Source of the DNA: Eledone cirrhosa
Lineage: Eukaryota
NCBI GenBank assembly: GCA_964016885.1
Contig: OZ024740.1
Span: 423,460,001 to 423,524,000, forward strand
Direction: 5' to 3'
Length of the DNA stretch: 64,000 bases
Made by a program: the position numbers and the translations under genes. Below, piece after piece: positions 1,276 through 61,432 of this stretch (within the stretch, counting starts at the first letter, position 1; every line of letters starts with the position of its first letter). The notes under the pieces are model-generated. The model did no database searches and was not told the origin of the DNA. It saw nothing but the letters and a program-made list of their open reading frames with translations.

Positions 1276-3933
1276 ACATTAGAAAGCTTGAGTCCCTACT
1301 GAATGGGACACTAAAAAACATAGACACTAAAAATAGACTGGAAATAAAGTACAAAACTAGGAGGAAAAAGCTAAATATTATCATAGAGGAACTGAAGCAA
1401 CGCATTGTAGCAAAGAGTGCAAAAATCAGGCGATACGAGAACAGAGTCAGTCAGTATAGACAGAACCGCATGTTCGACAACAACCAGAAGATGCTGTTTG
1501 GACAGCTTGAAAGGAAAGAAAGAGGCAACGACTTGATCCCTGAGGCGGAACAAACTAAAGCATTCTGGAGAGGAATATGGGAGCAGGATGTTAAACATAA
1601 TGACCAGGCAGTGTGGATTGAGACAGTACAGAAGGAGATCAGTGAACAGGCACACCAACAAACTGATTTGAGTATCACAGTTGAAACTCTTAAGGGGCAG
1701 GCCAAAAAACTAACCAACTGGAGATCGCCAGGCCCAGATGGTGTGCAGGGGTATTGGATTAAAAATATAACATCCCTCCACCCGAAACTGACAACCATGT
1801 TCAATGACTGCTTGATGTCAGGTGAGGTACCAGAGTGGTTGACAAAAGGTACCACAGTTCTGATAATGAAAGACCGAATCGAGGATAATGATGTTACCAA
1901 CTATAGACCTATCACATGTCTGTCCGTAATGTGGAAACTGTTGACAAGCATTATGTCTGAGGAAATCTACCATCACCTCCACACAAACAACTTGTTACCG
2001 GACGAACAGAAAGGATGCCGAAAGAAGTCCCGTGGTACAAAGGACCAGTTACTTATTGATAAGATGGTAATGAGGAATTGCAAGAGGAGACACACTGGTC
2101 TTGACATGGGATGGATAGACTACAAAATGGCATTTGACATGTTGCCTCATTCTTGGATCACCAAAAGCGTAGAGATCTTCAGGGTGGCAGATAACATCAG
2201 ACAGTTGTTGGGCAAAAGTATGAAGTCCTGGGAAACAGAGTTAACATCAGCTGGAGAATCCTTGGGAGGCGTGAAGATCAAGAGAGGTATCTTCCAGGGA
2301 GATAGTCTGTCCCCTCTGGTGTTTGTCCTTGCCCTGATGCCCCTGACCATTATACTGCGAAAAGTGAGAGCAGGATACAAGTTGGGAAAGGGAGAGCTTA
2401 CCATCAATCACCTCCTCTTCATGGACGATCTTAAGCTCTTCGGGAAGAGTGAGAAGGAGTTGGATGTGCTCGTTGACACTGTCCGTATTTTCAGCAATGA
2501 TATATGTATGCAATTTGGTATTAGTAAGTGTGGAGTCCTTGTGATGAAGAGGGGTAAATTGAGCAGAAGTAACGGAATCCAGGTACCAACAGGTGAGATG
2601 ATAAAGGAAATTGACACTGAGGAGGGATACAAGTATTTGGGTGTTCTGGAGGCTGATGACATCAAGAACAAAAAAATGAAGGAATTGATAAGAACTGAAT
2701 ACATTCAGAGAGTAAGGAGCGTATTAAAGTCACATCTGAACAGTAGGAATGCCATAAGTGCAGTAAATTCCCGAGCTGTGTCTATTATTAGGTACAGTGC
2801 AGGAATTCTGAGATGGAATGTTACTGAACAAAAAGAAATGGATAGGAAGACTAGGAAGCTATTGACTATCTACAACATGTTCCACAAAAGGAGTGATGTC
2901 GATAGACTCTACTTAAGGAGATCTGAAGGTGGAAGAGGTCTTATCAGCATAGAGGACTGTGTTCAGATGGAGAAAAACAACCTACACAAATACGTGACTG
3001 ATAGTAAGGAGCCAATGCTCAGAACTGTACTGAAGGAGAGGACAATGGACCAGGGGATGTCCAAGGAGGAAATAACAACAAGGAGAAAGAGCAGCCTTCA
3101 GGAAAAATCCCTTCATAGTACCTTCTTTGAGAAAACTGAATTCAGAGGTCCACAGACATGAAACTGGTTGAAAAGAGGAGACCTTAAAAAGGCTACAGAA
3201 GGAATGCTAATGGCTGCGCAAGAGCAGGCCCTCAAAACGAAGTGGTTGAAACACCATATCTACAAGGAGGAGGCTAGCCCACTGTGCAGGATCTGTGGAG
3301 AGAGAGAGAGGAGACTGTGGCTCACATTGTATCCGAGTGTAAACACCTAGCCCAGACCCACTATAAGGGCTGGAGACATGATGTGATGGGCAGGGTGATC
3401 CACTGGCACCTGTGCAAAGTAAACAATTTACCACATTCTGAGAAGTGGTATGAGCATAAGCCAGAGTCGGTGATAGAAAACGATCAGGTGAAGGTGCTGT
3501 GGGATTTTAGGATACAGACGGACAAGAAACTGGACCACAATAGACCTGACCTGGTGGTTGTGGACAAATAAAAAAGATCGTGCCTGATTGTGGATGTGGC
3601 CTGCCTATTCGACACGAGAGTGCAAGAGAAGGAGAGGGAGAAAATTAACCGATACCAGGATTTAAAGTGGGAGGTAAAAAGGATTTGGAACTGCCATGAA
3701 GTCAAAGTGGTCCCGATTGTCATAGGCGCACTAGTACTATCTCAAAAAGTTTCCAGGGATGGTTGAAGAAAATTGGCCCCTTCATGCTTTTTGGAACGCT
3801 TCAAAAGGCATGCTTGCTGGGAACAGCAAGAACCCTGCGATACGTCCTGAATATCTGAGGCTGCAGGTAGTGGCTTGATATTCATTTCAACAAACTTTCC
3901 AGTTAACTAACATCAATGACTGAGACTCAAAGA

Positions 3934-16541: not shown

Positions 16542-16620
<79 letters not shown>

Positions 16621-27000: not shown

Positions 27001-27128
27001 TAGTCTCTACACCAGAAACTCCAACAGATTGCTGTCCCAGCGATCCACCTGTTTCATCTCCAGTCACGAGAAGCGGACGACGCGTCCATTGGCCCGCAAA
27101 GTTGGCACAATATGTGAATTACTGTTAA
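24034..27128 (+). pseudogene. pol: Gypsy pol (protease, RT, RNase H, integrase), with stop and frameshift at about 25504-25550
   Basis: LVDTGA; YIDD; TDHKPL, ADALSR; HHCC; HIDIVGP, TTDRG, NGLVER; PYSGPY. Confidence 0.92.
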
Positions 27129-31859: not shown

Positions 31860-34298
31860 GGCATGAGGCATCAGAAGAACATTCTGGATCTAGTGTTTAG
31901 TAACCACACTAACACTATATTACAGTGGAAAAACCCTTCTCCCAGACCATGACATGGTTCTTTGTAACCTGAGATTCCACCAGCCGAAAGCTAATCCCAG
32001 GGTCCTCTCTACAGCCCACCCATTTGATAACATGGATCTCCACAATGCCAACTGGGATGCAATTATGAACGAACTATCACATGTCGACTGGTCTTTTACA
32101 CTCGCACACACTTCCACCAACATCAAAACATCTTGGCAGATCTTTGTAGACACTGTCACAAATATATGTACAAAACACACCCCACCAAAACCTGTGAACA
32201 AAACTAAGTGCAGTACCCCCAAAACAGAAAAACAATTATCAGAAAAATAAAAAGAACTAACAAAAAAATTAACACACTAAAATACTGCCAACAGCAACAC
32301 ACACATTCAATGGATATCACCCTGCTTGAGTCAAAAAAATATAACCTCCAAAAATGCATGATGACCATCATCAATAACCAGAGAATAGCTGAAGAGAGGT
32401 GGGCCATTGAGAAAATCAAACTCAACCCCAAAGTGTTCTTCTCATTCGCTAAAAAACACATGGTCACCGTCTCCACTGTTGGCCCCCTAGTTGATGAAAG
32501 TGGCACACTCCAAGACAGCCAAAACCATGGGCGAGATACTGCAGAAACAATACTGCTCTGTTTTCAGCAACCCTGATATGGCCGATCTGGGCCGTATCAG
32601 TGATATTAACCCCCAACACACTATATCAGATATAACGTTTGGCACCCCTGATGTCTTAGCGGCAATAAACGAAATTAAACACAATTGAGCAGTAGGCCCC
32701 GACAGTTTCCCTGCTTGTGTCCTGAAGGTGTGTCGACACCAACTTGCATCTCCTTTTGTTAATCTGTGGAGGAACTCACTGGACACTGGCTATATTCCTG
32801 AAAACTTTCTGTCCCAGTCTTCAAAAAGGGAAATAAGTCCCTTGTAGTGAACTACCGTCCGATCTCACTCACCTCTCATATTATCAAGGTATTTGAGAGG
32901 GTGGTGATATCACGAATAACCCACTTTCTTGAAAGCAACGGCCTGCTGAACTCCAACCAACATGGATTCCGTAATGGAAGGAACTTCCTAACGCAGCTCC
33001 TGCATCACTTTGACAATGTTTTGAGAGCCTTGGGAGAGGGCTCCAACACTGATGTCATCTACCTTGATTTCAGTAAGGCATCCGACAGGGTTGATCATAA
33101 GATTCTACTGAAAAATCTATCCAATGCTGGTGTCTCAGGAACGTTACTACAGTTCATCAAATGTTTCCTGACAGGCAGAACCCAGCATGTTGTAGTCGAA
33201 GGAGTAAAATCAAGCCCTGCCAAAGTCAGCAGTGGCGTCCCACAAGGCACTGTGTTGGGCCCATTTCTTTTCATCATCTACATTAATGACATTACTGACA
33301 TCATCAAGCACAGCAACATCAGAATCTTCGCAGATGACTCCAAGCTCCAAAGGGTCATCAATGAGGTGGGTGACCGGACTTGCCTTCAGTCAGACCTACT
33401 GGCTGTTATCCAATGGGCAGAGATGAATAATATGCTGTTGAATGAGGATAAATTTGAACGAATCCACTTTGGAAAAAATGATGCCCTGAAACTACCATAC
33501 TCTCTTCCTTCGGGGTGAAACTCTAGTGGCTTCCAATAACATCAGAGACCTGGGAGTAATTGTCGACAACAATATAAGCTGGGCCACTCATATAAACAGC
33601 AAAGTTGATATGGCCCGCAGAGTGTGTTCCTGGATTCTCAGAACTTTCCAGTCGAAAGATATCCACACTGTTGTCCTTCTCTTCTCCACTTTTGTCCGAC
33701 CCCACCTTGAATACTGTTGTCCACTGTGGTCACCACACACGAAACAAAGTATCATGAAAGTTGAAGCACCCCAAAGGTCAATTACAAAAAAGATAGTTGG
33801 CATGACAGGCCTTGACTATTGGGGTCGATTAGAAAAGCTCAAACTTTATTCTCTTCAACGTCGCCGTGAGCGCTACATTATATGTATGATGTGGAAAATA
33901 TTCCATCATTTGCCCAAATGATGTTGGCATCATCTTTAGTCTACACCCAAGGCTTGGGCCTCGTGCTCTCCGCCCACGACAAAAATCCCACTCGCATCAC
34001 AAAACAACAATACGGCACAATTATTTCACCTCAATTGGCCCTGCACTCTTTAACATTACACCAATACACATCAAAGCAGAGACAGACCCCATCAAGTTTA
34101 AGAAGTCTTTGGATAAATTCCTTCAAAAAATCCCGGATAAGCCTCCTACACCCGGATATACCTCCGTAAACAATAACTCTCTGCTCGAGTGGGCCATGGT
34201 GCCCAAACACTGATTTGTAAGACTTCGCCAGGTGGTGCTATTAAGTTAGTTATGGCCTGGGCCAATACTGACCGAAATCTATCAAAGTTATCAAAGTT
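31860..34298 (+). mobile_element. 5'-truncated CR1/L2-group LINE, decayed
   Basis: NYRPISLTS, YLDFSKA, SGVPQGTVLGP, FADD, RDLGV, RPHLEYCCPLWSP; tail (ATCAAAGTT)2. Confidence 0.9.
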
Positions 34299-38630: not shown

Positions 38631-39162
38631 CAATGACAACAACAGTAGGAACATCAACAGCAACACCAACTTCCACAGCATCTGCGACAGAACCCCGCAA
38701 CTACACCTCAGAACATATCTTTGCTCGCTTCGGATCTCTCTGGTGAAGACCAGAATGGGGGAAAGTGTTTTTTAAAAGAAGGGAGAAAAAAAAAGACAAA
38801 AAAAATAGGCAGAAAGAAAATAAATCCCACATCAGCACCACCACCCTATCACCAACACTATAAATACAATAAAATTCACAACTACAACAACAGTACCCAC
38901 AAAAAACTAAACATATCCCCAACTACATGGCCATAAACAGATTACTGAACCTCATACACCAAGATAGAGATATTACAGAAAATGACTACATCACACCGAC
39001 AAATAGCAACACACAAATAGTTCAAATAACACAAGACACTTTACACAAAGATACTCATTGCCCCCAGTATTTGCATTTCTAAGATATGATGAAAGTATAT
39101 TCAATAAAACAGAAGTCTTACATAATAAAAGTATTTACAATCTCAATTATATCTTTGATATT

Positions 39163-40862
39163 ACGTTTAGCGTAAAAGTTGGTGTCCATCAGGGCTCTGT
39201 TCTTAGCCCCCTACTATTTATTATTGCCCTTCAGGCTATAACAGAGGAGTTCAAGACCGGCTGCCCATGGGAACTCCTATACGCAGATGATCTAACGCTC
39301 ATAGCTGAATCAATGACCGAACTAGAGAAGAAATTCCAAACATGGAAGCACGGCCTAGAATCAAAAGACCTTAAAATTAACCTGGCTAAGACTAAAGTTC
39401 TAGTTTGTAGGAAAGAAAATAAGGCGGCAGTCCCATCTGGGAAATGGCCATGCTCAGTATGTAGGAAAGGCGTAGGTAGAAACTCCATTTTATGTCCCAA
39501 ATGCAAAGTATGGGTGCATAAAAGATGTAGTGGGATCACAGGTAAGCTAACTAAGAACATAGATTTTACATGTGGCCGGTGCTCTGGTGCAATAAGTAGC
39601 AGCAAGTGCCCACAAAATACTAGCTCCCTCAACTGCGCAGAGGGTTCTATAGAAATAGTGGACAGCTTCCGTTACCTGGGTGACAAAATCAGCAGTGGGG
39701 GAGGGTGCTCTGAAAGTACAGTAGCTAGAGTCAGAACTGGATGGAAAAAGTTCAGAGAGCTTATACCACTATTAGCCGCTAGAGGGTTCTCCCTAAAAAT
39801 GAAAGGCAGGTTATACGATGCCTGCATACGAACAGCAATGCTGCATGGCAGTGAGACCTGGGCATTGTGTGCAGAGGATATACGCAGACTAGAGAGGAAC
39901 GAAGCTTGCATGCTCCGCTGGATGTGCAATAGTAATATACGTGAACGGCAAAGCATAAACGAACTAAGGAAAAAATTAGAAATAAGAGGGATCAGATGTT
40001 GTTTACTCGAGAGAAGGCTACGTTGGTACGGTCACGTGATGCGCATGAAAGACGACAGCTGTATAACAAAGTGCAGGGCAATAAAGATAGACGGTAGCCA
40101 CGGAGTAGGCAGACCCAGAAAAACATGGGACGAGCTGATAAATTCCGACCTCACACGCTTACACCCCTCCAAGACAATGTCACTGGACCGAGACCTTTGG
40201 CGGTACTCAGTAATAGAGAAGACCCGCCTTACCTAAATACAAAGTAAAAACCTACTACAGTCAGTAGGCATCTCTATCAAAACACCCCCCCGTCCCACCA
40301 CCTCCACCCCATCCACACCGCCCCTTTCAATGTAAAGTTATGTTGGTCCCACAACATCCAGGCCGAAACAAATGAGATCGTGTAGGTGTCACGACAAAAA
40401 AACACACAGTCCACGCTGTAAATGTGGCCGTGTAGGAAACACGGTAAAAACCTCCCAGCCCCACACTGTAAATGTCGTTGGTGTTAGGAAGGGCATCCAG
40501 CTGTAGAAAACCCGCCAGACAGTCCACGCTGTAATGTGACCGTGTAGGCAACACGGTAAAAACCTCCCAGCCCCACACTGTAAATGTGGTTGGTGTTAGG
40601 AAGGGCATCCAGCTGTAGAAAACCCGCCAGACAGTCCACGCTGTAATGTGGCCGTGTAGGCAACACGGTAAAAACCTCCCAGCCCCACACTGTAAATGTG
40701 GTTGGTGTTAGGAAGGGCATCCAACTGTAGAAAACCCGCCAGACAGTCCTATGCGAGCAAGACAACCACTCTTGCCTCAAGTGGGAAAACCCCCGTCCAA
40801 ACCCATACAAGCGTGGAACACGGACGCTAAACCTGATGATGATGATGATGATGATGATGATA
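39163..40862 (+). mobile_element. 5'-truncated RTE-b LINE with complete 3' UTR (three 112-bp tandem units) and (GAT)n tail
   Basis: Open RT C-terminal frame to 40236; units at 40406-40749. Confidence 0.9.
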
Positions 40863-44077: not shown

Positions 44078-44438
<361 letters not shown>

Positions 44439-44625: not shown

Positions 44626-44627
<2 letters not shown>

Positions 44628-47600
44628 TCTTCTGGTTTTATAATTTCACAAAGTTTTACCAATAGAGAGAGAGTCGATTTCTAACATAGACACAAGACTC
44701 TCTCATTGGAATTTACACATCAAATAGGTAGATATGTATGTATGTCTGCATGCATGCATGTGTAGATATGGATGTTATTGTATGTGTGGATGTGGATGTT
44801 TTGAGTTGTATGTGTGCATGTGTATATGCTTTGTATCTGTACATGTGTATATGCAGTTATTAGATGCAAAAGTTTTGGAATGTTTTACATATTTTTACTG
44901 TTCCATTAATGGATTGTACTTGTAATTTCCTAACTAGTTGTGTTCTTTCTGTTCCTGTGAAGCCTAGCTTCTCAAGATTTGTATTGAGGCAGTTACTAAC
45001 ATATCCCAGTGCCCCAATAATAACAGGCATAAATTTGAAGGTATAATCAGGGTGGAGTATCTGCAGATTTCTCATCAGTTCTGCATAAATATTCTCCTTT
45101 TTACTAATCTTTGATATTATATTGGCATCTGCTGGGCAGCTAATTTCCACTACTGTGCATGCTTTCTTCTCCCTGTCTCATATCATAATATTTGGTCTGT
45201 TATGCCTGCATTTTATTGGAGTTTTTACTGGAACATTCCACCAGTACTCTTTCATATTATGTACATGGATGTCTTCCACATTGTTGTAGCTTTTAATGTG
45301 TTTGTTATCGGGGCTATCTTTTTTACGAACTGCATTGTAGTGTTTTGGCCACTACATCATGCCTCATAGGTAGATAATACTGCGATGACATCTTTGGGCA
45401 GCTGCTCATGACATGGGTGATATCCTCGATGTTAGTTCTGCAGAGTCTGCACTTGTTATCACATCTAGGTGTTTTGCCTGCATCCCTATCTCTTTTGTGA
45501 ATCAGGTATTTCGTGCTAATCTCCTGTTCTTGGATTGCAAAAGCGTATCCTTCAAAGTGGGAGCCAATATAGCGGTTGTTGGTCCAATATAGACTACTTT
45601 CCTTATCTATATTACTCTCACTCTGGAGCTTCCTGGCAACATATCCATGCATGGTTTTTTGCTGATAGGCATGCAGTTTTTCATCCATGGATTCACTGCG
45701 ATACTGCTGAGCGACATCCCTGGGTGTGAGTTTTTGATTATAACACAGGGAATATCTCTCAAGGAGTTCCTTCCTAACTCTCATGATCTTATCTGTTTCA
45801 TGCAGATAGACTTGCTCGAGAAGCGGGCTCCTACGCTTCGAGGTTCGTAGATGTTGTCGGAAAGATATGATGCGACATTCAAATGTTGTCTGGACTGATG
45901 TTAAGCCTCTGCCTCCCTGCTTACGTTTCAAGTAAAGGCGGTCTATGTCACTGTTGATGTGGAAGTTTCCGGTGTTGTTCAGTATTTTTCGAGTTCCAAC
46001 ATCAACTGCTCGGATTTCGTCTATCGTCCAATTGAGTATTCCAAACGTTGGTGTTAGGACAGGCACAGCAAACACATTGTGAGCCACTGTTTTGTTTTGC
46101 GCAGAGAGTTCTGATGACCAGATCTTTCTTAATCGGGTGTAGTATTCCCTGGTTACGCGTTCTTTATTACAGATACCATTATAGGATATGTTCTAATCTA
46201 TCCCCAGGTATCTGTAGCAGTCCTCATCAGATATCGGTGAAACAGTTAGACCATTGATGACAATGTTGCTAGATTGGGTTGTTGTTTTTTCCCGCTTTAC
46301 AGTCCTATATCCTTTGAGAATGTTGTAACCAGGTCAAGATTTTTCTTCATCCCATCCATGTTCTTGGCATAGAGTTTCAGATCGTCCACAAAGAAGTTAT
46401 GGGTTAGGTTCGTATTTCTGTCCTCCTGTGAGCCAATGATGTATCCCTCACATTTCTTGAGCAGAAAGGACAAGGGGTTTAATGACAAGATGAACAATAT
46501 CACAGAGAGACTGTCCCCCTGAAATATACCCCTGCAATATTTTATTTTATCAGTGAAAATAGAGTCCTCTCTCTCTGTCTTTAACCTTAGGATAGTAGCC
46601 CAAGAAGAAGACAGCCTCTCTATGGCTCTGACAATAATGTCTGGGACTTTAGCAAGCTGGAGGGCCTCTATCATCCAAGAGTGGGGAACCGAATCGAAAG
46701 CTTTCTTGTAGTCCAGCTAGACTGTAGTCATATTCCTCCTAAGTTATCGCACCTCCGACATCGCAGTTTTGTTGATTAGGAGTTGTTCAGCACATCCCCA
46801 AACCCTTTTCTTTCCAGCTGCTTGTTCATCTGTGATGATGTTATTATTTTCACAGTGATCTTGGAGGAATAGGTTGAGGCAGGCTGTATACATCTTATAC
46901 ATCAGGTTCTGGCATGCAATGGGTTGGTATTTTTTTGCCAAGTGGGTGTCTTTGTTCTTGGGGACCAGTAACGTTTGCGCTAATGTCAACCATTCTGGTA
47001 TAAGTGTATCTCCCTTAAGAACTTGTTAGTAGAGGTCAGTAAGATACCTCCGATAGAATATTAGTTTTTTGTACCAGTAGCCGACAATCATGTCTCTTCC
47101 TGGTGTTTTCTTATCTTGGAGTTTTCCTATCACAGTCTCAAGGGTACCCTCACTTATTTCGTATGTTTTTGTTGTAGTGTAGGAGCAATAGTTCTTTCGG
47201 ATTTCTCTTAGCCACACTGCATCTTGGTTGAAATTCTTCTTTTCACCCCATATTTTTCTCCAAAAGGAATCTATGTCTTTCTGGGATGGGGCCTCAGTGA
47301 CACTTATTATTTTGCCCTTCATATCTCTATAGACTGATGTTTGGTTTCGTCTGAATCTTTTATTAAGCATTTTTCTCTCATCTACCTTCTTCAGGTATCG
47401 GCGTTTTTCGCTAACAGCTCTCAATTCTTGTTTGAAGATGATCAGCTTATATTGGAGAGTTCTGGTTCTACTGTTACCAAACATCGTCTCTATTTTATTT
47501 TTCACTCTTTGTTGGTGAGAAGTGAGGGTTTTTTGTGTTTGTTTGCATGTAAGGAGCATTATCACATGTCCTATGTTTTTTCGTAGGTCAGCACTCTTTT

Positions 47601-48970
47601 TTTCTATTTTAGTTATATATGATGGTATTTTTGGTGGTGTTTTGTTCTTGTTAATATTGTGGTTAGAAAAAGCTATCTCACTTACCGCTTTTCACAGGCG
47701 CCGCTAAATTCCACTGCAGGTACTCCTCTTCCACGTGCGTCCAACAGCTTAACACCGGGAGCTGCCCAAAACGCGCGTCCACACCGTGTGCTGGTCACCA
47801 CTAGAGAGAGGCCCTCTGCTGGCCCTTCCGGTCGAGCATCCTTCCGGCCCAAAACCCCTTCCGGTCGAGCACTCCCCCGCCTCCGGCCACCGCACGCCAC
47901 ACCATACCCATAAATATCTCTGCTACCACCAAGATAATGCTTCACTGTCATTGCTAAGGCATATAAACAGGCGTTGATTTGCCAAAATGTTGGGGTTTTT
48001 ATCCGTCGTAAATATTCATCCCCTATTTCGTCAATAACACGTAGTATTTCATTATTTGGTTTTTTATTCACCATTGTCATTTTAACACGTTCAGCCAGAG
48101 AGATATTTATACATGAGTTAATTTCTCTCTGGAAGATTTCGTTGAGGGAAATTTTCAATTGTTTATACTTTTGATTATCATTATCGATAGTATTTTCCAC
48201 AACAGTCGAGGTAGACTCGGATGGTATACGTGGTGTCAAATTTCTTCGATTATTATTATTATTATTTCTTCGATTATTATTATTATCGATAGTGTTTTCC
48301 CCAGCATTCGAGGTAGACTTAGATGGTACAGGCATAGTTGTTTCAAGGCGCTGTTCGACCTGGCTGCTAGGAAGTCTAGTAGCATAGTGATCTGTAGCAC
48401 GTGTTGTTGATTCCATGTTTGTTGTGGGGGACTTACAATTAATAATATTTATCTTATTTTTACGTTCAACAAACGTCGCTTGTTGGCGTAATTGTTTCGC
48501 TGTGAAATAATTTAGCTCTGGGTGCATTTCGTCCCAGTGTAGCTTCATTCTATTCATATAGCCAATGGAGGGATTGTTTTTTGCCATTTTATAACAATTA
48601 AATAAATCATTATTAAGTTCGCAACTCCAAGAGAAATGCGATTTATAATTTCGGTTTCTTCTGTAGCTACAACTGAATAAAGTTTGATTATCTTCTTTGT
48701 TATTTGTCTTCGATACTTCCTTAATTTTCTTGTTGATGTTGTGTTCAGCCATGCTGTTTGTAGCAAATCCTTGTAAAATGAATTATGTATTTAGTCGGAT
48801 ATCTCTACGAATTCGAATAAAAGGTGTCTTCAGAAGGGATAGTTAGAAGAATAACCAGTTATTCAACCTGGCTGTAGTTGTGGCATTACTGTCGGAGATA
48901 GTATTCATCTTAAATTTAATAAATAGTCTCCCACGCCAAAATATGCGACTGATCGCGTTGACTGGTGGAA
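44626..48970 (-). mobile_element. Apparently full-length R4-like RLE non-LTR element (family A), decayed, in (CATA)n
   Basis: N-terminal FSW..YMNRMKLHWDEMHPEL; YQPIAC, GIFQGDSLS, FFVDDLKLY, CRLC..HVMSSC, RHD, NRPNI, EISCP. Confidence 0.88.
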
Positions 48971-48982
48971 TGTATGTATGTA

Positions 48983-49013
<31 letters not shown>

Positions 49014-49258
49014 ATGTATGTATGTATGTATGTATGTATGTATGTGTGTGTATGTATGTATGTATGTATGTATGTATGTATGTATGTGTGTGTGTATGTA
49101 TGTATGTGTGTATGTATGTATGTATGTATGTATGTATGTATGTATGTGTGTGTGTATGTATGTATGTATGTGTTTGTGTGTATGAATGTATGTATATATG
49201 TATGTGTGTGTGTGTATGTATGTATCTATGTATGTATGTGTATGTATGTGTGTGTATG

Positions 49259-49507
49259 TTATTTTCTCTTTCTCTTAATTTCGAGTATATTTTTTTGACC
49301 GGCCACCTCCCTGGTGGCAAGGTTGTAAAAGAAAAGAAATTGTCATCCCTTGAATCGCAAGAATGTTTTGCAAATTTTGAAGGTGCCAGCTATCGCAGCC
49401 ATTTGTAGACTATGAATTGGGGAGCTGCGCTTTTTGTCCGCAAATCCAAGTTCAGTCATACTTTGGTCCAAGCGGGTCGGTATATAACCCGTAGCACCAA
49501 TAATGAT
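49259..49507 (-). mobile_element. 3'-end fragment of R4-like family B
   Basis: Inverse match to 59450-59695. Confidence 0.9.
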
Positions 49508-49872
49508 GTATGTATGTATGTATGTATGTATGTATGTATGTATGTATGTATGTATGTATGTATGTATGTATGTATGTATGCGTGTATGTATGTATGTATA
49601 TATGTATGTATGTGTATGTATGTATGTATGTATGTGTGTGTATGTATGTATGTATATATGTATGTATGTGTATGTATGTATGTATGTATGTATGTATGTA
49701 TGTATGTGTATGTATGTATGTATGTATGTATGTATGTATGTATGTATGTATGTATGTATGTATATATGTATGAGTATGTATGTATGTATGTATGTATGTA
49801 TGTATGTATGTATGTATGTATGTATGTGTGTGTATGTATGTATGTATGTATGTATGTATGTATGTATGTATG

Positions 49873-50446
49873 TTTTGTTTTTAGTCCTGCAGGATGTCCA
49901 AAGTCACCCTCCTCACCAAGAAACCTTGGTGGGGTTGCCAGTTTAGTCGCCAACGACCCAACCATGAGACAGGTTGTACTGGCATACATGTCAAAGGGCA
50001 AAGGAGCTCTTAAGAGTCAATGGCCATCCAAAATTACCGGGAGAGATGACCCCTTAGCCTTTGTCAAGGCAGAATTCTAGGAGAAGGAAAACTCTGATAT
50101 AACACCTGCAACTCTGATGGTATCCAATGCTGCTGACTTGTTCTTCTTTTTGGTAAATATCATCTTGGTTAAGAGAGTGGGACTGGCTTTGTGCAGTGCC
50201 TTTGCTCACTATAAAAGCTTCACGGCACAGGCATTGCTTTATGTCTGGAGATCTCTCTGCACTTGTCGTCACATGGTACCATGGGCCCAGCACTATGTGT
50301 CAATAATTGTCACAAGTGTAATGTTTGTACCAGAGTTTTCAAGTCGCTGGCTGGACTAAAAAGTCACTCGTTCAGCGCATCGGTAGGAGTTCTCCTACAT
50401 GGATATAAAGTAGTGGCCATACTCGAAAACAAGTTGGCAGCCTCCA
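49873..50446 (+). mobile_element. Non-autonomous RTE-derived bipartite element (family C) with (ATGT)n tail
   Basis: RTE-like 5' UTR motif CTAGGAGAAGGAAAACTCTG joined to a C2H2-type end (C..C.RVFKSLAGLKSH). Confidence 0.65.
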
Positions 50447-50452
50447 TGTATG

Positions 50453-50485
<33 letters not shown>

Positions 50486-51091
50486 CAGGTCACTATTTGG
50501 TGCTACTGGTAACATGTATCCCAGTACAACCTGTCACATGGTCGGGTCTTTGGCGACTAAACTGGCAACCCCACCAAGGTTTCTTGGTGAGGAGGGTGAT
50601 TTTGGACATCCTGCAGGATTAAAAACAAAACCTGTCAAAGGGCAAAGGAGCTCTTAAGAGTCAATGGCCATCCAAAATCACAGGGAGAGATGACCCCTTA
50701 GCTTTTGTCAAGGCAGAATTCTAGGAGAAGGAAAACTCTGATATAACACCTGCAACCCTGATGGTATTCAATGATGTTGACTTGTTCTTCTTTTTGGTAA
50801 ATATCATCTTGGTTAAGAGAGTGGGACTGGCTTTGTGCAGTGCTTTTGCTCACTATAAAAGCTTCACGGCACAGGCATTGCTTTATGTCTGGAGATCTCT
50901 CTGCACTTGTCGTCACATGGTACCATGGGCCCAGCACTATGTGTCAATAATTGTCACAAGTGTAGTGTTTGTACCAGAGTTTTCAAGTCGCTGGCTGGAC
51001 TAAAATGTCACACTTGTTCAGCGCATCGGTAGGGGTTCTCCTACATGGATATAAAGTAGTGGCCGTACTCGAAAACGAGTTGGCAGCCACC
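50486..51091 (+). mobile_element. Family C copy with inverted 5' segment (50486-50630)
   Basis: First about 145 bp is the reverse complement of the family 5' end. Confidence 0.75.
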
Positions 51092-51112
51092 ATGTATGTA
51101 TGTATGTATGTG

Positions 51113-51146
<34 letters not shown>

Positions 51147-51437
51147 TGTATGTATGTATATATGTATGTGTATCTATGTATGTATGTATGTATGTATGTA
51201 TGTATGTATGTGTATGTATGTATGTATGTATGTATGTATGTATGTATGTATGTATGTGTATGTATGTGTATGTATGTATGTATGTATGTATGTATGTATG
51301 TATGTATGTATGTATGTATGTATGTATGTATGTATGTATGTATGTGATAGATGAGAGAAACAACAGGTGTGTCCAGGTAAAGCAGTGAAAACCAACAAGC
51401 TAAAAGTTAAAGGTAATACATTTCAGAGATTCAAAGA

Positions 51438-51725
51438 TGGCTGCTACTGCTGCTGGTGCTGCTGCTGCTGGAGGTGCTTCTGGTGCTGCTACTGCTGCTG
51501 GTAGTGGTGATGGTGCTGCTACTGCTGCTGGTGGTGGTGATGGTGCTGCTACTGCTGCTGGTGGTGGTGATGGTGCCGCTACTGCTGCAGGTGGTGGTGA
51601 TGGTGCTGCTACTGCTGCAGGTGGTGGTGATGGTGCTGCTACTGCTGCAGGTGGTGGTGATGGTGCTGCTACTGCTGCAGGTGGTGGTGATGGTGCTGCT
51701 ACTGCTGCAGGTGCTGGTGGTGTGC
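51438..51725. repeat. 30-bp GC-rich minisatellite, about 9 units
   Basis: Unit GGTGGTGGTGATGGTGCTGCTACTGCTGC(A/T). Confidence 0.9.
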
Positions 51726-52189
51726 TGGTCACTATATATGTGTCTACAACAATGGCTACTGTTGGTACGTTGGAGAAATGCTATAAATAAATGATGAAAT
51801 CATTACTCCTCACTTCTAAAGAGTTCCACTCAAATCAAGGTAATTACCTGCAAATACATTCACAACTCTCCACATATTTTACACTAGTCTTAATTATTTC
51901 TATGGGGAGAAATTAAACCACACACACATACACACAGATACACACACACATACATACACACAGTTACACACATACACACAGACACGCACAGATGCACATA
52001 CACACGCAGACACACACATATACACACACATACACACAGATACACATACACACACATACCCCCCCCCCCCTACACACACACATATATTGCTAAGCTAAAA
52101 CAATATCGACAGAGAACAATCTTTAACCTAGATTTAATTCCCAGAAAACCATTCCACTTCACTTATTGATGTTGTCGGCAAAAGACATA

Positions 52190-55100
52190 AATACTACCTC
52201 TACCACCCCTTTAACCACCCTACTAAATACAATAGTACCTCTACCACCCCTTTACTCATCCTACTAAATACAATAGTACCTCTACCACCCCTTTACTCAT
52301 CCTACTAAATACAATAGTACCTCTACCACCGCTTTACCCACACTACTAAATACAATAGTACCTGTACCACCCCTTTACCTACCCTACTAAATACAATAGT
52401 ACCTCTACCACCCCTTTACTCATCCTACTAAATACTATACTACCTCTACCACCCCTTTATCCACCCTACTAAATACAATACTACCTCTACCACCCCTTTA
52501 CCCATCCTACTAAATACAATAGTACCTCTACCACCCCTTTACTCATCCTACTAAATACAATAGTACCTCTACCACCGCTTTACCCACACTACTAAATACA
52601 ATAGTACCTCTACCACCCCTTTACGCACACTACTAAATACTATACTACCTCTACCACCCCTTTACCCACCCTACTAAATACAATACTACCTCTACCACCC
52701 CTTTACCCATCCTACTAAATACAATAGTACCTCTACCACCCCTTTACCCACCCTACTAAATACAATAGTACCTCTACCACCCCTTTACTCATCCTACTAA
52801 ATACAATAGTACCTCTACCACCCCTTCACCCACCCTTCTAAATACAATAGTACCTCTACCACCCATTTACCCATCCTACTAAATACAATAGTACCTCTAC
52901 CACCCCTTTACCCACCCTACTAAATACAATAGTACCTCTACCACCCCTTCACCCACCCTACTAAATACAATAGTACCTCTACCACCACTTTGCCCACCCT
53001 ACTAAATACAATAGTACCTCTACTACCCCTTTACCCATCCTACTAAATACAATAGTACCTCTACCACCCCTTTACCCACCCTACTAAATACAATAGTACC
53101 TCTACCACCCCTTTACCCATCCTACTAAATACAATAGTACCTCTACTACCCCTTTACCCATCCTACTAAATACAATAGTACCTCTACCACCACCCTACCG
53201 ACCCTACTAAATACAATAGTACCTCTACCACCCCTTTACTCATCCTACTAAATACAATAGTACCTCTACCACCACCCTACCGACCCTACTAAATACAATA
53301 GTACCTCTACCACCCCTTTACCCACCCTACTAAATACAATAGTACGTCTACTACCCCTTTACCCATCCTACTAAATACAATAGTACCTCTACCACCACCC
53401 TACCCACCCTACTAAATACAATAGTACCTCTACCACCCCTTTACTCATCCTACTAAATACAATAGTACCTCTACCACCACCATACCCACCCTACTAAATA
53501 CAATAGTACCTCTACCACCCCTTTACCCACCCTACTAAATATAATAGTACATCTACCACTCCTTTACCCACCCTACTAAATACAATAGTACCTCTACCAC
53601 CCATTTACCCATCCTACTAAATACAATAGTACCTCTACCACCCCTTTACCCACCCTACTAAATATAATAGTACATCTACCACCACTTTACCCACCCTACT
53701 AAATACAATAGTACCTCTACCACCACTTTACCCACACGACTAAATACAATAGTACCTTTACCACCACCCTACCGACCCTACTAAATACAATAGTACCTCT
53801 ACCACCCCTTTACCCACCCTACTAAATATAATAGTACATCTACCACCACTTTACCCATCCTACTAAATACAATAGTACCTCTACCACCACCCTACCGACC
53901 CTACTAAATACAATAGTACCTCTACTACCTCTTTACCCACCCTACTTAATACAATAGTACCCCTACCACCCCTTTACCTATCCTACTAAATACAATAGTA
54001 CCTCTACCACCCCTTTACCCACCCTACTAAATACAATAGTACCTCTACCACCCCTTTACCCATCCAACTAAATACAATAGTACTTCTACCACCACCCCTT
54101 TACCCACCCTACTAAATACAATAGTACCTCTACCACCACTTTACCCACCCCACTAAATACAATAGTTCCTCTACCACCACTTTACCCACCGCACTAAATA
54201 CAATAGTACCTCTTCCACCACTTTGCCCACCCCACTAAATACAATAGTACCTCTACCACCACTTTACCCATCGCACTAAATACAATAGTACCTCTACCAC
54301 CATTTACCCACCGTACTAAATACAATAGTACCTCTACCAGCACTTTACCCATCCTACTAAATACAATAGTACCTCTACCACCACTTTTCCCACCCCACTA
54401 AATACAATAGTACCTCTACCACCACTTTACCCACCGCACTAAATACAATAGTACCTCTACCACCACATTTCCCACCCCACTAAATACAATAGTACCTCTA
54501 CCACCACTTTTCCCACCCCACTAAATACAATAGTACCTCTACCACCCCTTTACCCACCCTACTAAATACAATAGTACCTTTACCACGACCCTACCCACCG
54601 CACTAAATACAATAGTACCCCTACCACCACTTTTCCCACCCCACTTAATACAATAGTACCTCTACCACCACGTTACCCACCCCACTAAATACAATAGTAC
54701 CTCTACCACCACTTTACCCACCCTACTAAATACAATAGTACCTCTACCACCACGTTACCCATCCTACTAAATACAATAGTATCTCTACCACCACTTTGCC
54801 CCCCTACTAAATACAATAGTACCTCTACCACCACTTTGCCCACCCTACTAAATACAATAGTACCTCTACCACCACTTTGCCCCCCTACTAAATACAATAG
54901 TACCTCTACCACCACTTTACCCATCCTACTAAATACAATAGTACCTCTACCACCCCTTTACCCTCCCTACTAAATACAATAGTACCTCTACCACCACTTT
55001 ACCCATCCTACTAAATACAATAGTATCTCTACCACCACTTTGCCCATCTTACTAAATACAATAGTACCTCTACCACCACTTTGCCCACCCTACTAAATAC

Positions 55101-55554
55101 AATAGTACCTCTACCACCACTTTGCCCACCCTACTAAATACAATAGTACCTCTACCACCACTTTGCCCACCCTACTAAATACAATAGTACCTCTACCACC
55201 ACTTTGCCCACCCTACTAAATACAATAGTACCTCTACCACCACTTTGCCCACCCTACTAAATACAATAGTATCTCTACCACCACTTTGCCCATCTTACTA
55301 AATACAATAGTACCTCTACCACCCCTTTACCCTCCCTACTAAATACAATAGTACCTCTACCACCACTTTACCCATCCTACTAAATACAATAGTACCTCTA
55401 CCACCACTTTGCCCACCCTACTAAATACAATAGTACCTCTACCACCACTTTGCCCACCCTACTAAATACAATAGTACCTCTACCACCACTTTGCCCACCC
55501 TACTAAATACAATAGTACCTCTACCACCACTTTGCCCACCCTATAAAATACAAT
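52190..55554. repeat. 41-bp satellite, about 80 units
   Basis: Unit CTACTAAATACAATAGTACCTCTACCACC(C/A)CTTT(A/G)CCCACC. Confidence 0.97.
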
Positions 55555-55765
55555 CGAACTTCTCCCTTATACTATTAGTAGACAACACTAATTAAGAATA
55601 TTAACATCAGAAAATACATACATATTTACGTACGTACATACATACATACATATATTATTCATACGTACATACATATATTATTCATACGTACATACATACA
55701 TATATACATTCATACACACATACACACACACATACATACATACATACACACATACATACATACAT

Positions 55766-55968
55766 GGTGGCTGCCAACTCGTTTTCGAGTACGGCCACTA
55801 CTTTATATCCATGTAGGAGAACCCCTACCGATGCGCTGAACGAGTGTGACTTTTTAGTCCAGCCAGCGACTTGAAAACTCTGGTACAAACACTACACTTG
55901 TGACAATTATTGACACATAGTGCTGGGCCCATGGTACCATGTGAGGACAAGTGCAGAGAGATCTCCAG
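55766..55968 (-). mobile_element. 5'-truncated family C copy
   Basis: Inverse match to 50888-51091. Confidence 0.85.
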
Positions 55969-55983
55969 CATACATACACACAT

Positions 55984-58900
55984 TACCCAAGCTGTGAATA
56001 ACTTTAAATTTGATTCTGACAGAACTTTGTCGTAACTTTTAAAGAAGATCATCGACTAATTTGAAAAATAAATACGAAATATTAGTGAATAGACGAACTC
56101 ATCATGGTAAAAAGTACAAGTCTCCTTCGACCAAATCGCAACTACAATCGTTTTACACAGTGGAGCTACGAGCTTAACAAAGTATTATATGAAGCATACA
56201 AACAATCTGAACCCCAAAAGTTCAGTTTTATGCAAAGGCTAAAAACTTTATGGACCTCCAAACACCCAGAATTAGACTTTTCTCCAAAGCATCTAAATGA
56301 ACAGACAAAACGTATCATTAGATGTAAATTGATACATCTAACGGAATTGAGTGATACTACAAATACAGCCCTTGTAGACAACCACCCCACCTCCACTGAC
56401 AGACAAAGAGAATGGCCAGCTAAATCTAACAGTGAACAGCTCACCAACAATTTTGCTGAAATCCATCCCACTTCCACTGAAGAACAGCGAGAAAGGTCAG
56501 CTAACTCTAGTAGTAATTGTCACCACATCAACAACGAATCTGAAATTCATGACTCTACTGAACAAACAGAGCACCAAAAACTTGTGGGCACCCTACAAGT
56601 GATATGGAACGATATGTTTCAAGAGATACACAGCCTTAATGTGAGTGACAGACCATACAACACTAGAGTCAGTAAAGAACCCACTAAATTGGAATTGGAA
56701 GCGGTGAACGAAATAGCTGGCAATTATCTGAAGGCTATACGATCTAAAGGTGTAGAAACGACATTTGAAACGCTTAATGTTTTGTTATATGTTTCAGCTG
56801 TCACATTGCTATCATATAACACACATCTAAAACCACGCAATCAAGATACAAACAGAAAGCCTGAACCAGCGTGGATGCGAAATTTAAAAACCAAAATTTT
56901 GTCCCTGAGACGAAGTATCTCACACATCGCAGTCGTTATGAAATGCAACATAGAGAGCAACTTCACACGACACCAGGAAGACCTAAAGAAAAAGTTAGAG
57001 AGACGATTTGGAGATACAAAATTTAAAACTTTGAACTCCAAATTACACCAGTTGAAACAACAACTCACAGCTACAACAGAAAGACTAAAATATAAGTCAA
57101 CAGCACATAAACGACAAGTGCTAAATAGATTGTTTGCCAGAGATACTAAATCAGTTTATCGCAGCTTAGGTGGCAAAAGCTCAATCCCTGTAAACGACAC
57201 CCCTTCAAAAGAACAGGTTGAGAGCTACTGGAGATCTGTATGGGAAACGGATGACGGATTCAACAGACAAGCTAATTGGCTAAAAGAACTGGAACAGGAC
57301 TACTGCCAACATGTCCAGACAAAACAATATGACATAGATGGGTCAATACTGGAAACAGCTCTACAGAAAATGTAGAATAGGAAATCGCCAGGCCCAGACC
57401 TCATTACAGGATACTGGTTGAAGAATTTCACTTTCTATCGGCAAGATCTCATACGGCTGTTTACAGAAACCATTAAGGGCACACAAGAACTGCCCAGATG
57501 GTTATCAACTGCCACTACTCTCCTCATTCCCAAAAATAGCCAAACCACCCTTGCTAAAAATTACCGCCCAATTGCCTGCCAAAACATCATGCATAAATTA
57601 TATACTGGGTGCCTTAACCTGTTCTTACAGGATCACTGTGCTACCAACAACATCATAACACCTGAGCAAGCTGGTGGAAAAAGGGAGGTGTGGGGTTGCA
57701 TAGATCACCTACTAACTAACAAAATGATTCAGGAAAAAACAACAAAGAATCGCAGAAACATGACTGTCGTGTGGCTGGACTATCAAAAGGCATTCGATAG
57801 TGTACCTCATGGGTGGATTATTAAGGCTTTACAGTTAGCTAAAGTCCCACAACCATTGGTAGCTGCTGTTGAACGCCTGACCAAGAACTGGTACACCAAT
57901 TTGATCCTTAGAGGTGAGAAGGAGCAGGTTAAGACTGATAAGATACATTACCAGAAGGGCATCTTTCAGGGTGATAGCTTGTCAGTGCTATTCTTCGTTC
58001 TCTCACTAAATCCACTATCTTACCTACTCAGGAAACAAGGTGGACAAAGAAGTGGGCCCAGAAGTATCTCCCATCTTTTCTTTGTTGATGACCTGAAGTT
58101 GTATGGGCCAAATATCAATGACATCAAGAAACAATTGGACCTCATTACACAATTTTCAACCGACATCAAAATGAAATTTGGTGAGTCCAAGTGTGCATAT
58201 TTGGCAGTAAAACGTGGAAGAGCTGTGCCCTCCTCTAGAAATCTAGAGATGAACGGCCTGACAATACAACCTCTGCAGTCAGGTGGCAACTACAGATATC
58301 TTGGACAGGATGAGAATGTCAGATATGATGGACCCATAAATAAGGAGAGAACCAGAACTGAATACCTCAGAAGAGTAAAGAAAATATGGTCATCAGAACT
58401 GTCAGCATACAACAAATACATTGCCCACAATACTTATGCTGTGCCAATTCTAACGCCAACATTTGGCCTACTGAACTGGTCATTGCAAGAACTAAGTGAG
58501 ATGGATGTTAGAACTCGAAAACTTCTCAGTGTTACTGGGAACTTTAACATCAATGGTGATGTGGATAGGCTATACTTCTCACGCAAGGAAGGTGGCCGGG
58601 GTCTAAGATCAATATTAACAACATATGAGACCCGGATAGTAACACTGAAGCAACACCTTCAACAGAGGAAAAAGGTTGGCAACCATCTTGCCCAGGTTTA
58701 TGAGCATGAAAAAAGAAATATCATTAGAATAGCGACTGATCTGGAGGAGAGATATGGAATAAAGCCTGATATAAATCTCTCACCCACAGAAATCGGAAGA
58801 TCCTATTCAATGTTCAAACTAGATAAAAAAAATTGACCAATTTACAGAAAAGGTTGTGCATGGATACTTGAGGCGTAAAACACAGACCATAGAGGGGATA

Positions 58901-59695
58901 AACCACTCAAAAAGCCTGACATGGAGTTCCGACAAGTTTATGACATCACACCTTGAGGGATATCTCTATGAAATACAGGAACAAGAACTCCTTACCAAAT
59001 ATCTGCTGCACAAAAGAGGAGGGCCACCAGCTGACACTAAATGTAGGCTATGTAAAACAAAGATCGAGGATGTAAGCCACATTGTTGCCAGCTGCGAAAG
59101 AATGTCATCTCGCTACTACCTCCCCATGAGACACGATGGGATAGCTAGAACCATCTGGAACGCACTTCGGAAAACAAAATTAACAACAAACGAGGAAGAA
59201 TATATTGAGGCAGATGGCACTAAGGAATACTGGTGGAACCTGAAAATAAAAACTGCCACCAAATTAAAGCACAACCGGCCTGATATTGTAGTTTGGGACC
59301 ACACATTGAAAACGTGTTCTGTTGTGGAGATCAGCTGCCCACTTGATTTAAACGTTGTCAGAAAAATACAGGAGAAGGAGGACATCTACGGACCATTGAT
59401 GAGGAGTTTACAAATCCAGTATCCAAGATACACCTTTAGCTTCATACCCATCATTATTGGAGCTACGGGTTCTATACCAACCCGCTTGGACCAAAGTATG
59501 ACTGAACTTGGATTTGCGGACAAAAAGCGCAGCTCCCTAATTCATAGTCTACAAATGGCTGCGATAGCTGGCACCTTCAAAATTTGCAAAACATTCTTGC
59601 GATTCAAGGGATGACAATTTCTTTTCTTTTACAACCTTGCCACCAGGAAGGTGGCCGGTCAAAAAAATATACTCGAAATTAAGAGAAAGAGAAAA
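55984..59695 (+). mobile_element. Apparently full-length R4-like RLE non-LTR element (family B), in (CATA)n
   Basis: 5' UTR, single disrupted ORF, short 3' UTR, (CATA)n both sides. Confidence 0.9.
56104..59614 (+). pseudogene. R4-like polyprotein (N-terminal DNA-binding-like domain, RT, CCHC, RLE); stop at 57373-57375 and frameshift near 58830
   Basis: NYRPIACQN, LDYQKAFDSV, FFVDDLKLY, CRLC..HIVASC, RHD, HNRPDIVVW, EISCP. Confidence 0.9.
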
Positions 59696-59823
59696 CATAC
59701 ATACATACATACATACATACATACATACATACATACATACATACACGCATACATACATACATACATACATACATACATACATACATACATACATACATAC
59801 ATACATACATACATACACATACA

Positions 59824-59857
<34 letters not shown>

Positions 59858-59870
59858 CATACATACATAC

Positions 59871-60290
59871 ATGATATTGTTGTTTGGGACCACACATTGA
59901 AAACGTGTTCTGTTGTGGAGATCAGCTGCCCACTTGCCCAATGTAAACGTTGTAAGAAAAATACAGGAGAAGGAGGACATCTACGGACCATTGATGAGGA
60001 ATTTACAAATCCAGTATCCAAGATACACCTTTAGTTTCATACCCATCATTATTGGTGCTACGGGTTATATACCAACCCGCTTGGACCAAAGTATGACTGA
60101 ACTTGGATTTGCGGACAAAGAGCGCAGCTCCCTAATTCATAGTTTACAAATGGTTGCGATAGCTGGCACCTTCAACATTTGCAAAACATTCTTGCGATTC
60201 AAGGGGTGACAATTTATTTTCTTTTACAACCTTGCCACCAGGAAGGTGGCCGGTCAAAAAAATAGACTCGAAATTAAGAGAAAGAGATAA
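59871..60290 (+). mobile_element. Family B 3'-end copy
   Basis: Matches 59281-59695. Confidence 0.9.
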
Positions 60291-60906
60291 CATAATATGA
60301 AAGAGTACTGGTGGAATGTTCCAGTAAAAACCCCAATAAAATGCAGGCATAACAGACCAGATATTATGATACGAGACAGGGAGAAGAAAGCATGCACAGT
60401 AGTGGAAATTAGCTGCCCAGCAGATGCCAATATAATATCAAAGATTAGTGAAAAGGAGAATATTTATGCAGAACTGATGAGAAATCTGCAGATACTCCAC
60501 CCTGATTACACCTTCACATTTATGCCTGTGATTATTGGGGCACTGGGATATGTTAGTAACTGCCTCAATACAAATATTGAGAAGCTAGGCTTCACAGGAA
60601 CAGAAAGAACACAACTAGTTAGGAAATTACAAGTACAATCCATTAATGGAACAGTAAAAATATGTAAAACATTCCAAAAATGTTGCATCTAATAACTGCA
60701 TATACACATGTACAGATGCAAAACATATACACATGCACACATACAACTCAAAACATCCACATCCACACATACAATAACACCCATATCTACACATGCATGC
60801 ATACATACATATCTACCTAGTTGATGTTGTGTAATGAGAGAGTCTATGTTAGAAACCGAATCTCTCTCTATTGGTAAAACTTTGTGAACTTATAAAACCA
60901 GAAGAA
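60291..60906 (+). mobile_element. Family A 3'-end copy
   Basis: Inverse match to 44626-45261. Confidence 0.9.
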
Positions 60907-61432
60907 CATATATATATACATACATACGTTTAATGTTAAATAGATTTATTTCACCTTCATTGGGAAATTATTTTATCAGTATTTTAAAATACATTTTTTA
61001 ATCCAAGTAATTTTCAATACTAATCTACAACTATTACTACAAACGTTTTAAGGGCAAACTTCGTTGGCAGGTTTTTACTCATCGTGGGACCCTATTTGAG
61101 AGAAATGTTTCACAGTCAGGTGCACCAATCCTTTTGTCGCCTTTTATAACAAGCAGGGATACGGTGTACCTATTTTAAACCAGATAATAGAGAAATATTT
61201 ATATAATACTAAAACTCTCTTATGTATGTTTGTTAGTACCTTAAATATAGCTCAAATAGTCCATTGTAATCTAAACATACGCTTCCACCTAAGATAACTA
61301 ATACAAAGAATATATTTTCTTATATAAAACAACAGAGAATGGTTATTTTCAATATTTCTTCAAATGTGATGTCTTTAGAAATGCGTGTGTTCACAAACAA
61401 AACAGATACACATGACAATATATGTTGTTGTT

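What the first reader, a model, noticed from the sequence alone, without database searches (positions are those of the whole stretch)
44626..60925. Two distinct R4-like RLE families apparently specific for (CATA)n
Seen: full-length A (44626-48970, minus) and B (55984-59695, plus) and three truncated copies have CATA repeats or CATA microhomology at their 5' junctions and end in AAC-ATA, always oriented with CATA on the sense strand; B runs into A at a shared ACATA (60290-60294). Known: R4-clade elements are often site-specific (R4 in rDNA, Dong in TAA repeats). Inference: a tetranucleotide-targeting lineage that I do not recognise as described; of interest as a site-specific insertion enzyme. 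B needs few repairs to reconstruct.
Basis: partly seen in the sequence, partly recalled or inferred. Interest (0 to 1): 0.72.

Follow-up and report, generated by a model that had tools for sequence, protein, structure and literature searches.

The report
Dong retrotransposons targeting CATA repeats
Two young, high-copy families of jumping genes in this likely octopus-type genome sit almost always inside the four-letter repeat CATA, facing one way, and belong to a branch whose relatives sit in CATA or CTTA repeats instead of the usual TAA, which likely reflects a shifted cutting preference that intact copies would let one test.

Summary
Mostly confirmed. A and B are distinct RT-CCHC-restriction-like-endonuclease non-LTR families (56% RT identity) with thousands of copies. 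Of the first 40 full-length 5' ends of each in genome order, 38 (A) and 39 (B) follow (CATA)n on the sense strand, none antisense, against 1.1% background; 59 of 70 truncated 5' junctions and 86 of 90 3' ends do too. A third family in this window (1277-3932) sits in (TAA)n (30/30 3' ends; 0 CATA), an internal control. In RT trees A and B group with public contigs flanked by (CATA)n or (CTTA)n (SH-aLRT 99-100), sister to TAA-type elements. Corrections: window B lacks about 510 nt of 5' UTR, and needs no repair because 11 of 40 full-length copies are intact. Not shown: an empty site, a target duplication, expression, or whether protein or RNA tail reads the repeat. TAA-targeting Dong and ACAY-targeting Waldo are known; nine paper searches found no tetranucleotide-targeting R4/Dong, but Repbase, Dfam and two key surveys were unreadable. 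This scan noted the same pattern on other DNA of this genome. Verdict: new target variant of a known kind.

The parts
44627..48964 (-). Family A, full-length but broken copy (Myb-like N-terminus, RT, CCHC, RLE); 3' end joins (CATA)n then (CA)n
   Evidence: 5' end matches other full-length copies
47658..47912 (.). About 255 extra bases inside window A, absent from the family consensus
   Evidence: gap between two alignments; origin not studied
48970..49253 (-). (CATA)n array: 5' flank of A and 3' flank of the truncated B
49263..49508 (-). 5'-truncated family B copy (last 246 nt)
49506..49873 (-). (CATA)n array: 5' flank of the truncated B
49872..51091 (+). Two copies of element C (about 605 nt, non-coding, RTE-like by its zinc-finger remnant; first copy with an inverted 5' piece), lying in the same repeats with TATG on their sense strand
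   Evidence: RTE assignment is inferred from recalled motif, not tested by tree
55765..55968 (-). 5'-truncated element C directly upstream of B
55982..59694 (+). Family B copy lacking about 510 nt of 5' UTR; ORF about 56104-59614 with one in-frame stop (57373-57375) and one frameshift near 58826-58830; preceded by CATACATACACAC
59695..59871 (+). (CATA)n array between the two B copies
59872..60287 (+). 5'-truncated family B copy
60290..60906 (+). 5'-truncated family A copy joined to the B copy through a shared ACATA
1277..3932 (+). Family D: 5'-truncated Dong-type element in (TAA)n, with a second 3' fragment at about 1096-1244; internal control with the classical target

Best explanation
A and B are two recently spread single-ORF retrotransposon families that lie in (CATA)n repeats in one orientation, likely because their protein finds and nicks existing (CATA)n arrays and copies the element RNA there by target-primed reverse transcription. 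Shown: domain layout, fixed 3' junction (AA-CATA), variable 5' truncation in any register of the repeat, strand polarity, stacking in shared arrays, and placement in a clade whose flank-known members have CATA or CTTA. Inferred from R2/R4 biology: the RLE nicks the TATG strand, its 3' OH primes cDNA synthesis from the RNA 3' end (probably helped by a few read-through CATA units), and the N-terminal three-helix Myb-like domain supplies part of the recognition. Each insertion leaves CATA on both sides, so the array stays a target and trains of A, B and C build up.
For: 5' flanks of full-length copies 38/40 (A) and 39/40 (B), 0 antisense, 0 TAA; genome-wide 137 of 150 minus-strand B 5' ends have CATACATA within 14 nt. 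Truncated 5' junctions 27/35 (A) and 32/35 (B); 3' ends 40/40 and 46/50. Background 1.07%; (TA)n and (CA)n are about 30 and 6 times more abundant than (CATA)n and (TAA)n is equally abundant, yet TAA x3 occurs at 0/90 3' and 1/77 5' junctions of A/B, while family D has TAA at 30/30 3' and 8/15 5' junctions and CATA at none. Upstream arrays are long (median 15.5 units) and often shared with oppositely oriented C (17/80) or another A/B (17/80). Intact RT, CCHC and RPD..E..K motifs in 11 B copies; model closest to R2Tg (Z 31.7, rmsd 4.6, 792 aligned) and R2Bm. Independent contig L312 (45% identity) has (CATA)n on both sides with the same AA-CATA junction; L311, L313, L314, L316 have (CTTA)n; clade support 99-100.
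Against: No empty site was seen and no target-site duplication could be resolved (8 of 215 candidates versus 1-7 in shuffles). 8/35 truncated A and 3/35 truncated B junctions lack CATA upstream, and 2 B junctions have TATG there. Sequence alone cannot separate protein recognition from RNA-tail annealing. The Myb-like call is a lead (Atlas 0.76-0.85; Pfam none). The RxNRxY arm typical of the clade (26/42 versus 0/108) is missing in two CTTA elements, so it is not the whole determinant.
Confidence: 0.72

Rival explanations
1. Targeting is set mainly by the RNA: transcripts end in CATA units that anneal to TATG strands opened or nicked by a loosely specific nuclease, so the repeat is chosen by base pairing and not read by the protein.
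For: Nearly every 3' end carries at least one CATA unit in a fixed register; some copies are joined to another element by 4-6 nt of CATA only (window 60290, L041/L232, L029), which fits template jumping on a tail; CATA and CTTA labels interleave on the tree; unrelated element C uses the same arrays from the other strand.
Against: RLE clades are described as mostly target-specific (PMC4640811 passages) and the Myb-like domain is argued to direct R4/Dong insertion (PMC7998251 passages); a single CATA origin is not rejected (p-AU 0.32); the tetranucleotide clade has its own N-terminal signature.
Confidence: 0.2
2. The elements insert without preference; the CATA runs are made during or after insertion (RT slippage at both ends, later expansion), or copies merely survive better in repeat-rich DNA.
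For: No empty site observed; extra untemplated and duplicated bases occur at 5' ends; the pure repeat hides any duplication.
Against: Strict motif and strand specificity at 5' truncation points anywhere in the element; the same arrays exist without A/B in random DNA (19 arrays in 200 kb) and border oppositely oriented C copies; passive survival would favour the far commoner (TA)n and (CA)n and would not separate A/B from D.
Confidence: 0.06
3. The association is an assembly artefact of repeats joined through microsatellites.
For: Public contigs of relatives end inside the repeats.
Against: Hundreds of loci with different unique flanks; the same junctions occur in separately assembled runs (47 contigs at the B 3' end in X7; one contig at the 5' end in X5).
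Confidence: 0.02

Closest known systems
Dong (Bombyx mori), DongAg, DongBg, ostracod Dong1/2; R4 clade
   Same: Single ORF with Myb/SANT-like N-terminus, no N-terminal zinc finger, RT and RLE; microsatellite target; stacking in the target (PMC7998251 and PMC3812793 passages).
   Different: Target is (CATA)n, not (TAA)n; A and B lie on a separate well-supported branch, 36-39% RT identity to the TAA families D and E of the same genome; no HDV-like 5' ribozyme detected, whereas Dong and R4 have one (PMC3774820 passages).
Waldo elements (WaldoAg1/2, WaldoFs1; R1 clade)
   Same: Target ACAY microsatellites, which include ACAT = CATA (PMC3812793 passages).
   Different: APE-type enzyme; A and B have a C-terminal RLE, so the shared target would be convergent.
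Cephalopod 'Dong-R4' RepeatMasker class
   Same: Abundant, recently active in octopuses (5 families, 1,129 recent insertions in O. vulgaris, PMC13282606; also PMC9115989, PMC8967140; passages); B's nearest named relative is an Argonauta hians protein. The families may already be in those libraries.
   Different: No target is mentioned in the main texts searched ('target' 0 times in PMC13282606, 'target site' 0 times in PMC9115989); their supplements and libraries were not seen.
R2 (R2Bm, R2Tg) and Togen/HERO microsatellite-specific RLE elements
   Same: RT-linker-CCHC-RLE architecture and presumed TPRT; Togen uses (TG)n, some HERO use microsatellites (PMC4640811 passages).
   Different: Only about 20% identity to R2; no N-terminal zinc fingers; dispersed tetranucleotide target instead of 28S rDNA.

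Membership tests
RLE non-LTR retrotransposons | Single ORF with RT, CCHC knuckle and C-terminal PD-(D/E)xK endonuclease | tested here: met
   11 intact 1,173-1,174-residue B frames, all with FFVDDLK, CX2CX8HX4C, RPD..E..P and K..Y motifs; same motifs in the A consensus; model matches R2 to the C-terminus
RLE non-LTR retrotransposons | TPRT signature: fixed 3' end, variable 5' truncation, no terminal repeats | tested here: met
   70 of 77 resolved 3'-anchored copies are truncated at scattered positions, 3' ends constant
R4/Dong clade | N-terminal Myb/SANT-like domain without zinc fingers | tested here: inconclusive
   Confident three-helix bundle at residues 27-79 and no C2H2; profile also hits 28/108 TAA-side proteins; Atlas Myb clusters 0.76-0.85, below its trust level; Pfam no Myb; domain-only fold search not run
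R4/Dong clade | RT phylogeny groups with named R4, Dong, Rex6 | tested here: inconclusive
   Sister to TAA-flanked elements and to Bombyx and Pediculus proteins, apart from two 28S-rDNA-inserted elements used as root; no sequence named Dong, R4 or Rex6 was obtained
R4/Dong clade | Insertion into rDNA or a microsatellite | tested here: met
R4/Dong clade | 5' HDV-like self-cleaving ribozyme (shown for R4 and Dong) | tested here: inconclusive
   No Rfam match in L178 or L125; crude own descriptor found none but had no positive control
Dong in the strict sense | (TAA)n target | tested here: not met
   TAA x3 at 0/90 3' and 1/77 5' junctions, 0/80 full-length 5' ends
Waldo (R1 clade) | N-terminal APE endonuclease | tested here: not met
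   Pfam on the intact protein finds only RVT_1 and zf-RVT; RLE motifs present
Named Repbase/Dfam family with this target | Existing entry annotated with (CATA)n or (CTTA)n target | not testable with these tools
   Repbase and Dfam not held; Fell et al. 2025 not held; Kojima and Fujiwara 2004 seen only as a citation

The most novel reading that the evidence does not exclude
An unnamed, deep sister lineage of the TAA-targeting Dong elements has switched to four-base repeats, reads C(A/T)TA, is spread over several animal hosts, and toggles between CATA and CTTA; with TAA, CATA and CTTA enzymes of one fold and intact natural copies, it is a ready series for working out how RLE retrotransposons encode and change their target.
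Probability: 0.5. Interest if true: 0.62.

Novelty: new variant of a known kind. Interest (0 to 1): 0.46.

Why it matters
How RLE retrotransposons change targets is an open question and matters for R2-based gene insertion tools. One genome here holds young TAA-specific and CATA-specific enzymes of the same clade, with intact B copies, and relatives elsewhere differ by one base of target (CTTA). That makes domain-swap and tail-swap tests direct. It also gives a target rule for the abundant cephalopod Dong-R4 class and explains trains of elements in CATA arrays. It is not a new mechanism: microsatellite targeting by this clade is known, and the target is too dispersed to be a single safe site.

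Tried and rejected
DNA search with B's 3' end returned nothing, probably because common words are skipped; patterns were used instead. Empty-site search among fetched loci was swamped by repeat noise and its output was cut. Target-duplication scan: 8/215 versus 1-7 in 8 shuffles, no signal. (CTTA)n in this genome is rare (681 overlapping 24-mer matches); of 12 arrays read, 3 have A directly across a mixed array but the junction bases are CATA in all 3, none is joined to CTTA, so degenerate C(A/T)TA recognition by A/B is neither shown nor excluded. Ribozyme search negative without positive control. No RNA holder listed, which says nothing on expression. Pooled junction counts were dropped for truncated copies because internal insertions and deletions were mis-scored as 5' ends; one search replaces them. 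First tree had very long outgroup branches and was not used for rooting. Five other papers tried by id were not held. A shared GGACGTG in the first 40 nt of B, L312 and L313 may be a promoter element, but its position varies and A lacks it.
Full report
Observation. Self-comparison and translation show two unrelated-looking RT elements in the window, alike at DNA level only over 253 nt at 69%, with RVT_1 and zf-RVT matches. Against full-length references the five copies are A 44627-48964 (-), B 55982-59694 (+), B 49263-49508 (-), B 59872-60287 (+) and A 60290-60906 (+). All end in AAC-ATA with CATA on the sense strand; four have a CATA run at the 5' junction and the last shares only ACATA with the preceding B. 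One correction: 28 of the 30 best matches to window B's start continue further upstream in shared sequence, and the true 5' end lies about 510 nt earlier, so window B is 5'-truncated. It has one in-frame stop and one frameshift.

Genome-wide test. Exact patterns give 2,198 A and 3,273 B 3' ends and 238 A and 332 B 5' ends in the 3.0-Gb genome (lower bounds). I fetched the first 40 full-length 5' ends of each in genome order: two CATA units lie within 30 nt upstream in 38/40 A and 39/40 B, never antisense and never TAA x3. On the minus strand, where each site is listed once, 137 of 150 B 5' ends have CATACATA within 14 nt (plus-strand matches are counted repeatedly and were not used). Background from 20 evenly spaced 10-kb stretches is 611/56,977 windows, 1.07%; there (TA)n covers 6.4%, (CA)n 1.2%, (CATA)n 0.21% and (TAA)n 0.20%. 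Because truncation points fall anywhere in the element and still meet CATA, the repeat is best read as target and not only as tail.

Internal control. The window holds a third RLE family, D (1277-3932), and a random stretch a fourth, E (L206), both in (TAA)n. D has 2,687 exact 3' ends; of the first 30, 30 have TAA x3 and none CATA; of 15 resolved 5' junctions 8 have TAA x3 and none CATA. A/B have TAA x3 at 0/90 3' and 1/77 5' junctions. Two targets are thus kept apart within one genome.

Age and integrity. 11 of 40 full-length B copies carry an unbroken 1,173-1,174-residue frame, 96.7-99.6% identical, each with RT, CCHC and RLE motifs. No intact A was found among 36 of 40 copies evaluated (longest frame 833 aa; four were skipped by a script fault); 14 of 17 near-full copies are 1.0-2.5% from their consensus, three 6-9%. 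A and B share 56% over the RT and about 47% overall. The AlphaFold model (mean pLDDT 83) has a three-helix domain at 27-79, a disordered linker and an RT-to-RLE body closest to R2Tg and R2Bm (sequence hits). The N-terminal domain resembles Myb clusters only at lead level; a Myb/SANT-like domain without zinc fingers is reported for R4/Dong (PMC7998251, passages).

Relatives. A scan of metagenome contigs returned 80 loci; I read the ends of 29, chosen for reaching the protein's C-terminus. The closest ones are tetranucleotide-flanked: L312 (45%) has (CATA)n on both sides with an AA-CATA junction; L313 has (CTTA)n on both sides, L311 and L314 on the 5' side, L316 on the 3' side. Eighteen more distant loci have TAA-type flanks (16 TAA, one TAAA, one CAA; mostly seen at the 3' end only), two lie in 28S rDNA, four gave no call. 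Trees rooted on the rDNA elements put A, B and the five tetranucleotide loci in one clade (SH-aLRT 100 with 64 rows; 99 with 28 rows) sister to the 19 TAA-type rows (95.5; 89). These are quick searches without bootstrap, each public label rests on one contig, and hosts are unknown. Inside the clade A pairs with CTTA-flanked L313 (96; 81) and B lies nearer L312, but one CATA origin is not rejected (p-AU 0.32). An RxNRxY motif before the helical domain occurs in 26/42 clade proteins and 0/108 TAA-side proteins, yet is missing in L314 and L316. B's nearest named relative is an Argonauta hians protein, which suggests an octopod host. Near-identical B sequence is held by 20 runs of 16 studies, five with over half the words under three organism codes; junctions to CATA appear in X7 (3', 47 contigs) and X5 (5', one contig); which of these is the window's own species is unknown.

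Mechanism. Shown: fixed 3' register (A: AGAA-CATA; B: GAWAA-CATA), 5' truncations in all four registers, long upstream arrays (median 15.5 units; random arrays 3-20) and stacking, with another A/B directly upstream in 17/80 and oppositely oriented element C in 17/80 full-length copies. Inferred from R2/R4 knowledge: nicking of the TATG strand by the RLE, priming from that end, recognition partly by the Myb-like domain. Not shown: empty sites, duplication length, a ribozyme, expression, use of CTTA here. The main rival, selection of the repeat by an RNA tail, fits the short CATA bridges between adjacent elements and cannot be excluded from sequence.

Known versus new. Dong, DongAg and the snail DongBg target TAA, and APE-type Waldo elements target ACAY (PMC3812793, passages); TAA is called the target in most insects, molluscs and cnidarians (PMC7998251); Togen targets (TG)n (PMC4640811, passages); R4 and Dong have 5' ribozymes (PMC3774820, passages). 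Octopus papers list Dong-R4 as abundant without a target in the passages searched (PMC13282606, PMC9115989, PMC8967140; supplements not seen). PMC5786205, PMC3747384, PMC5678591 and PMC13580325 (passages) added background only. Nine searches found no tetranucleotide-targeting R4/Dong, but Repbase, Dfam, Kojima and Fujiwara 2004 and Fell et al. 2025 could not be read. Earlier notes of this scan describe the same pattern elsewhere in this genome; they were read after my own tests and are not independent support.

Verdict. Real and strong; a new target variant and probably an unnamed sub-lineage of a known kind of microsatellite-specific RLE retrotransposon; interest 0.46.

Noticed in passing
window 1096-3965: Family D, a TAA-targeted Dong-type element with a stacked 3' fragment; 2,687 exact 3' ends in the genome; used as control.
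   Followed up: yes
window 49872-51091, 55765-55968: Element C: about 605-nt non-coding repeat, RTE-like bipartite structure, flanked by (TATG)n on its sense strand at both ends, present in 4 of 20 random stretches; likely makes and shares the arrays that A and B use.
   Followed up: partly
window 23178-27128 (+): Gypsy-like LTR element with gag-like, protease, RT, RNase H and integrase matches; described only.
   Followed up: no
window 52200-55545: Tandem array of about 81 copies of a 41-bp unit, 90-95% alike.
   Followed up: no
window 39007-40236, 11347-12291: Frames with a PHD finger match, one after an RT fragment; 14234-15285 is an inverted copy of 39165-40215.
   Followed up: no
window 11557-13137, 16619-19132, 44140-44340: Long inverted repeats with microsatellites at or near their centres; may be breakage-repair or assembly features.
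   Followed up: no
L127, L139, L141, L144, L153, L154 near position 500: Full-length A copies with tandem re-duplication of their first four bases at the 5' junction, suggesting slippage at the end of cDNA synthesis.
   Followed up: no
L360, L361: Two public contigs with RLE elements inserted in 28S rDNA, 24-27% identical to B; clade not determined.
   Followed up: partly
L412:2495-3427: A 932-nt stretch of (CTTA)n arrays without any A/B insertion.
   Followed up: partly
window 4547-6319 (-), 7677-8888 (-), 32802-33518 (+): Other LINE fragments (RT, zinc knuckle) unrelated to A/B.
   Followed up: no
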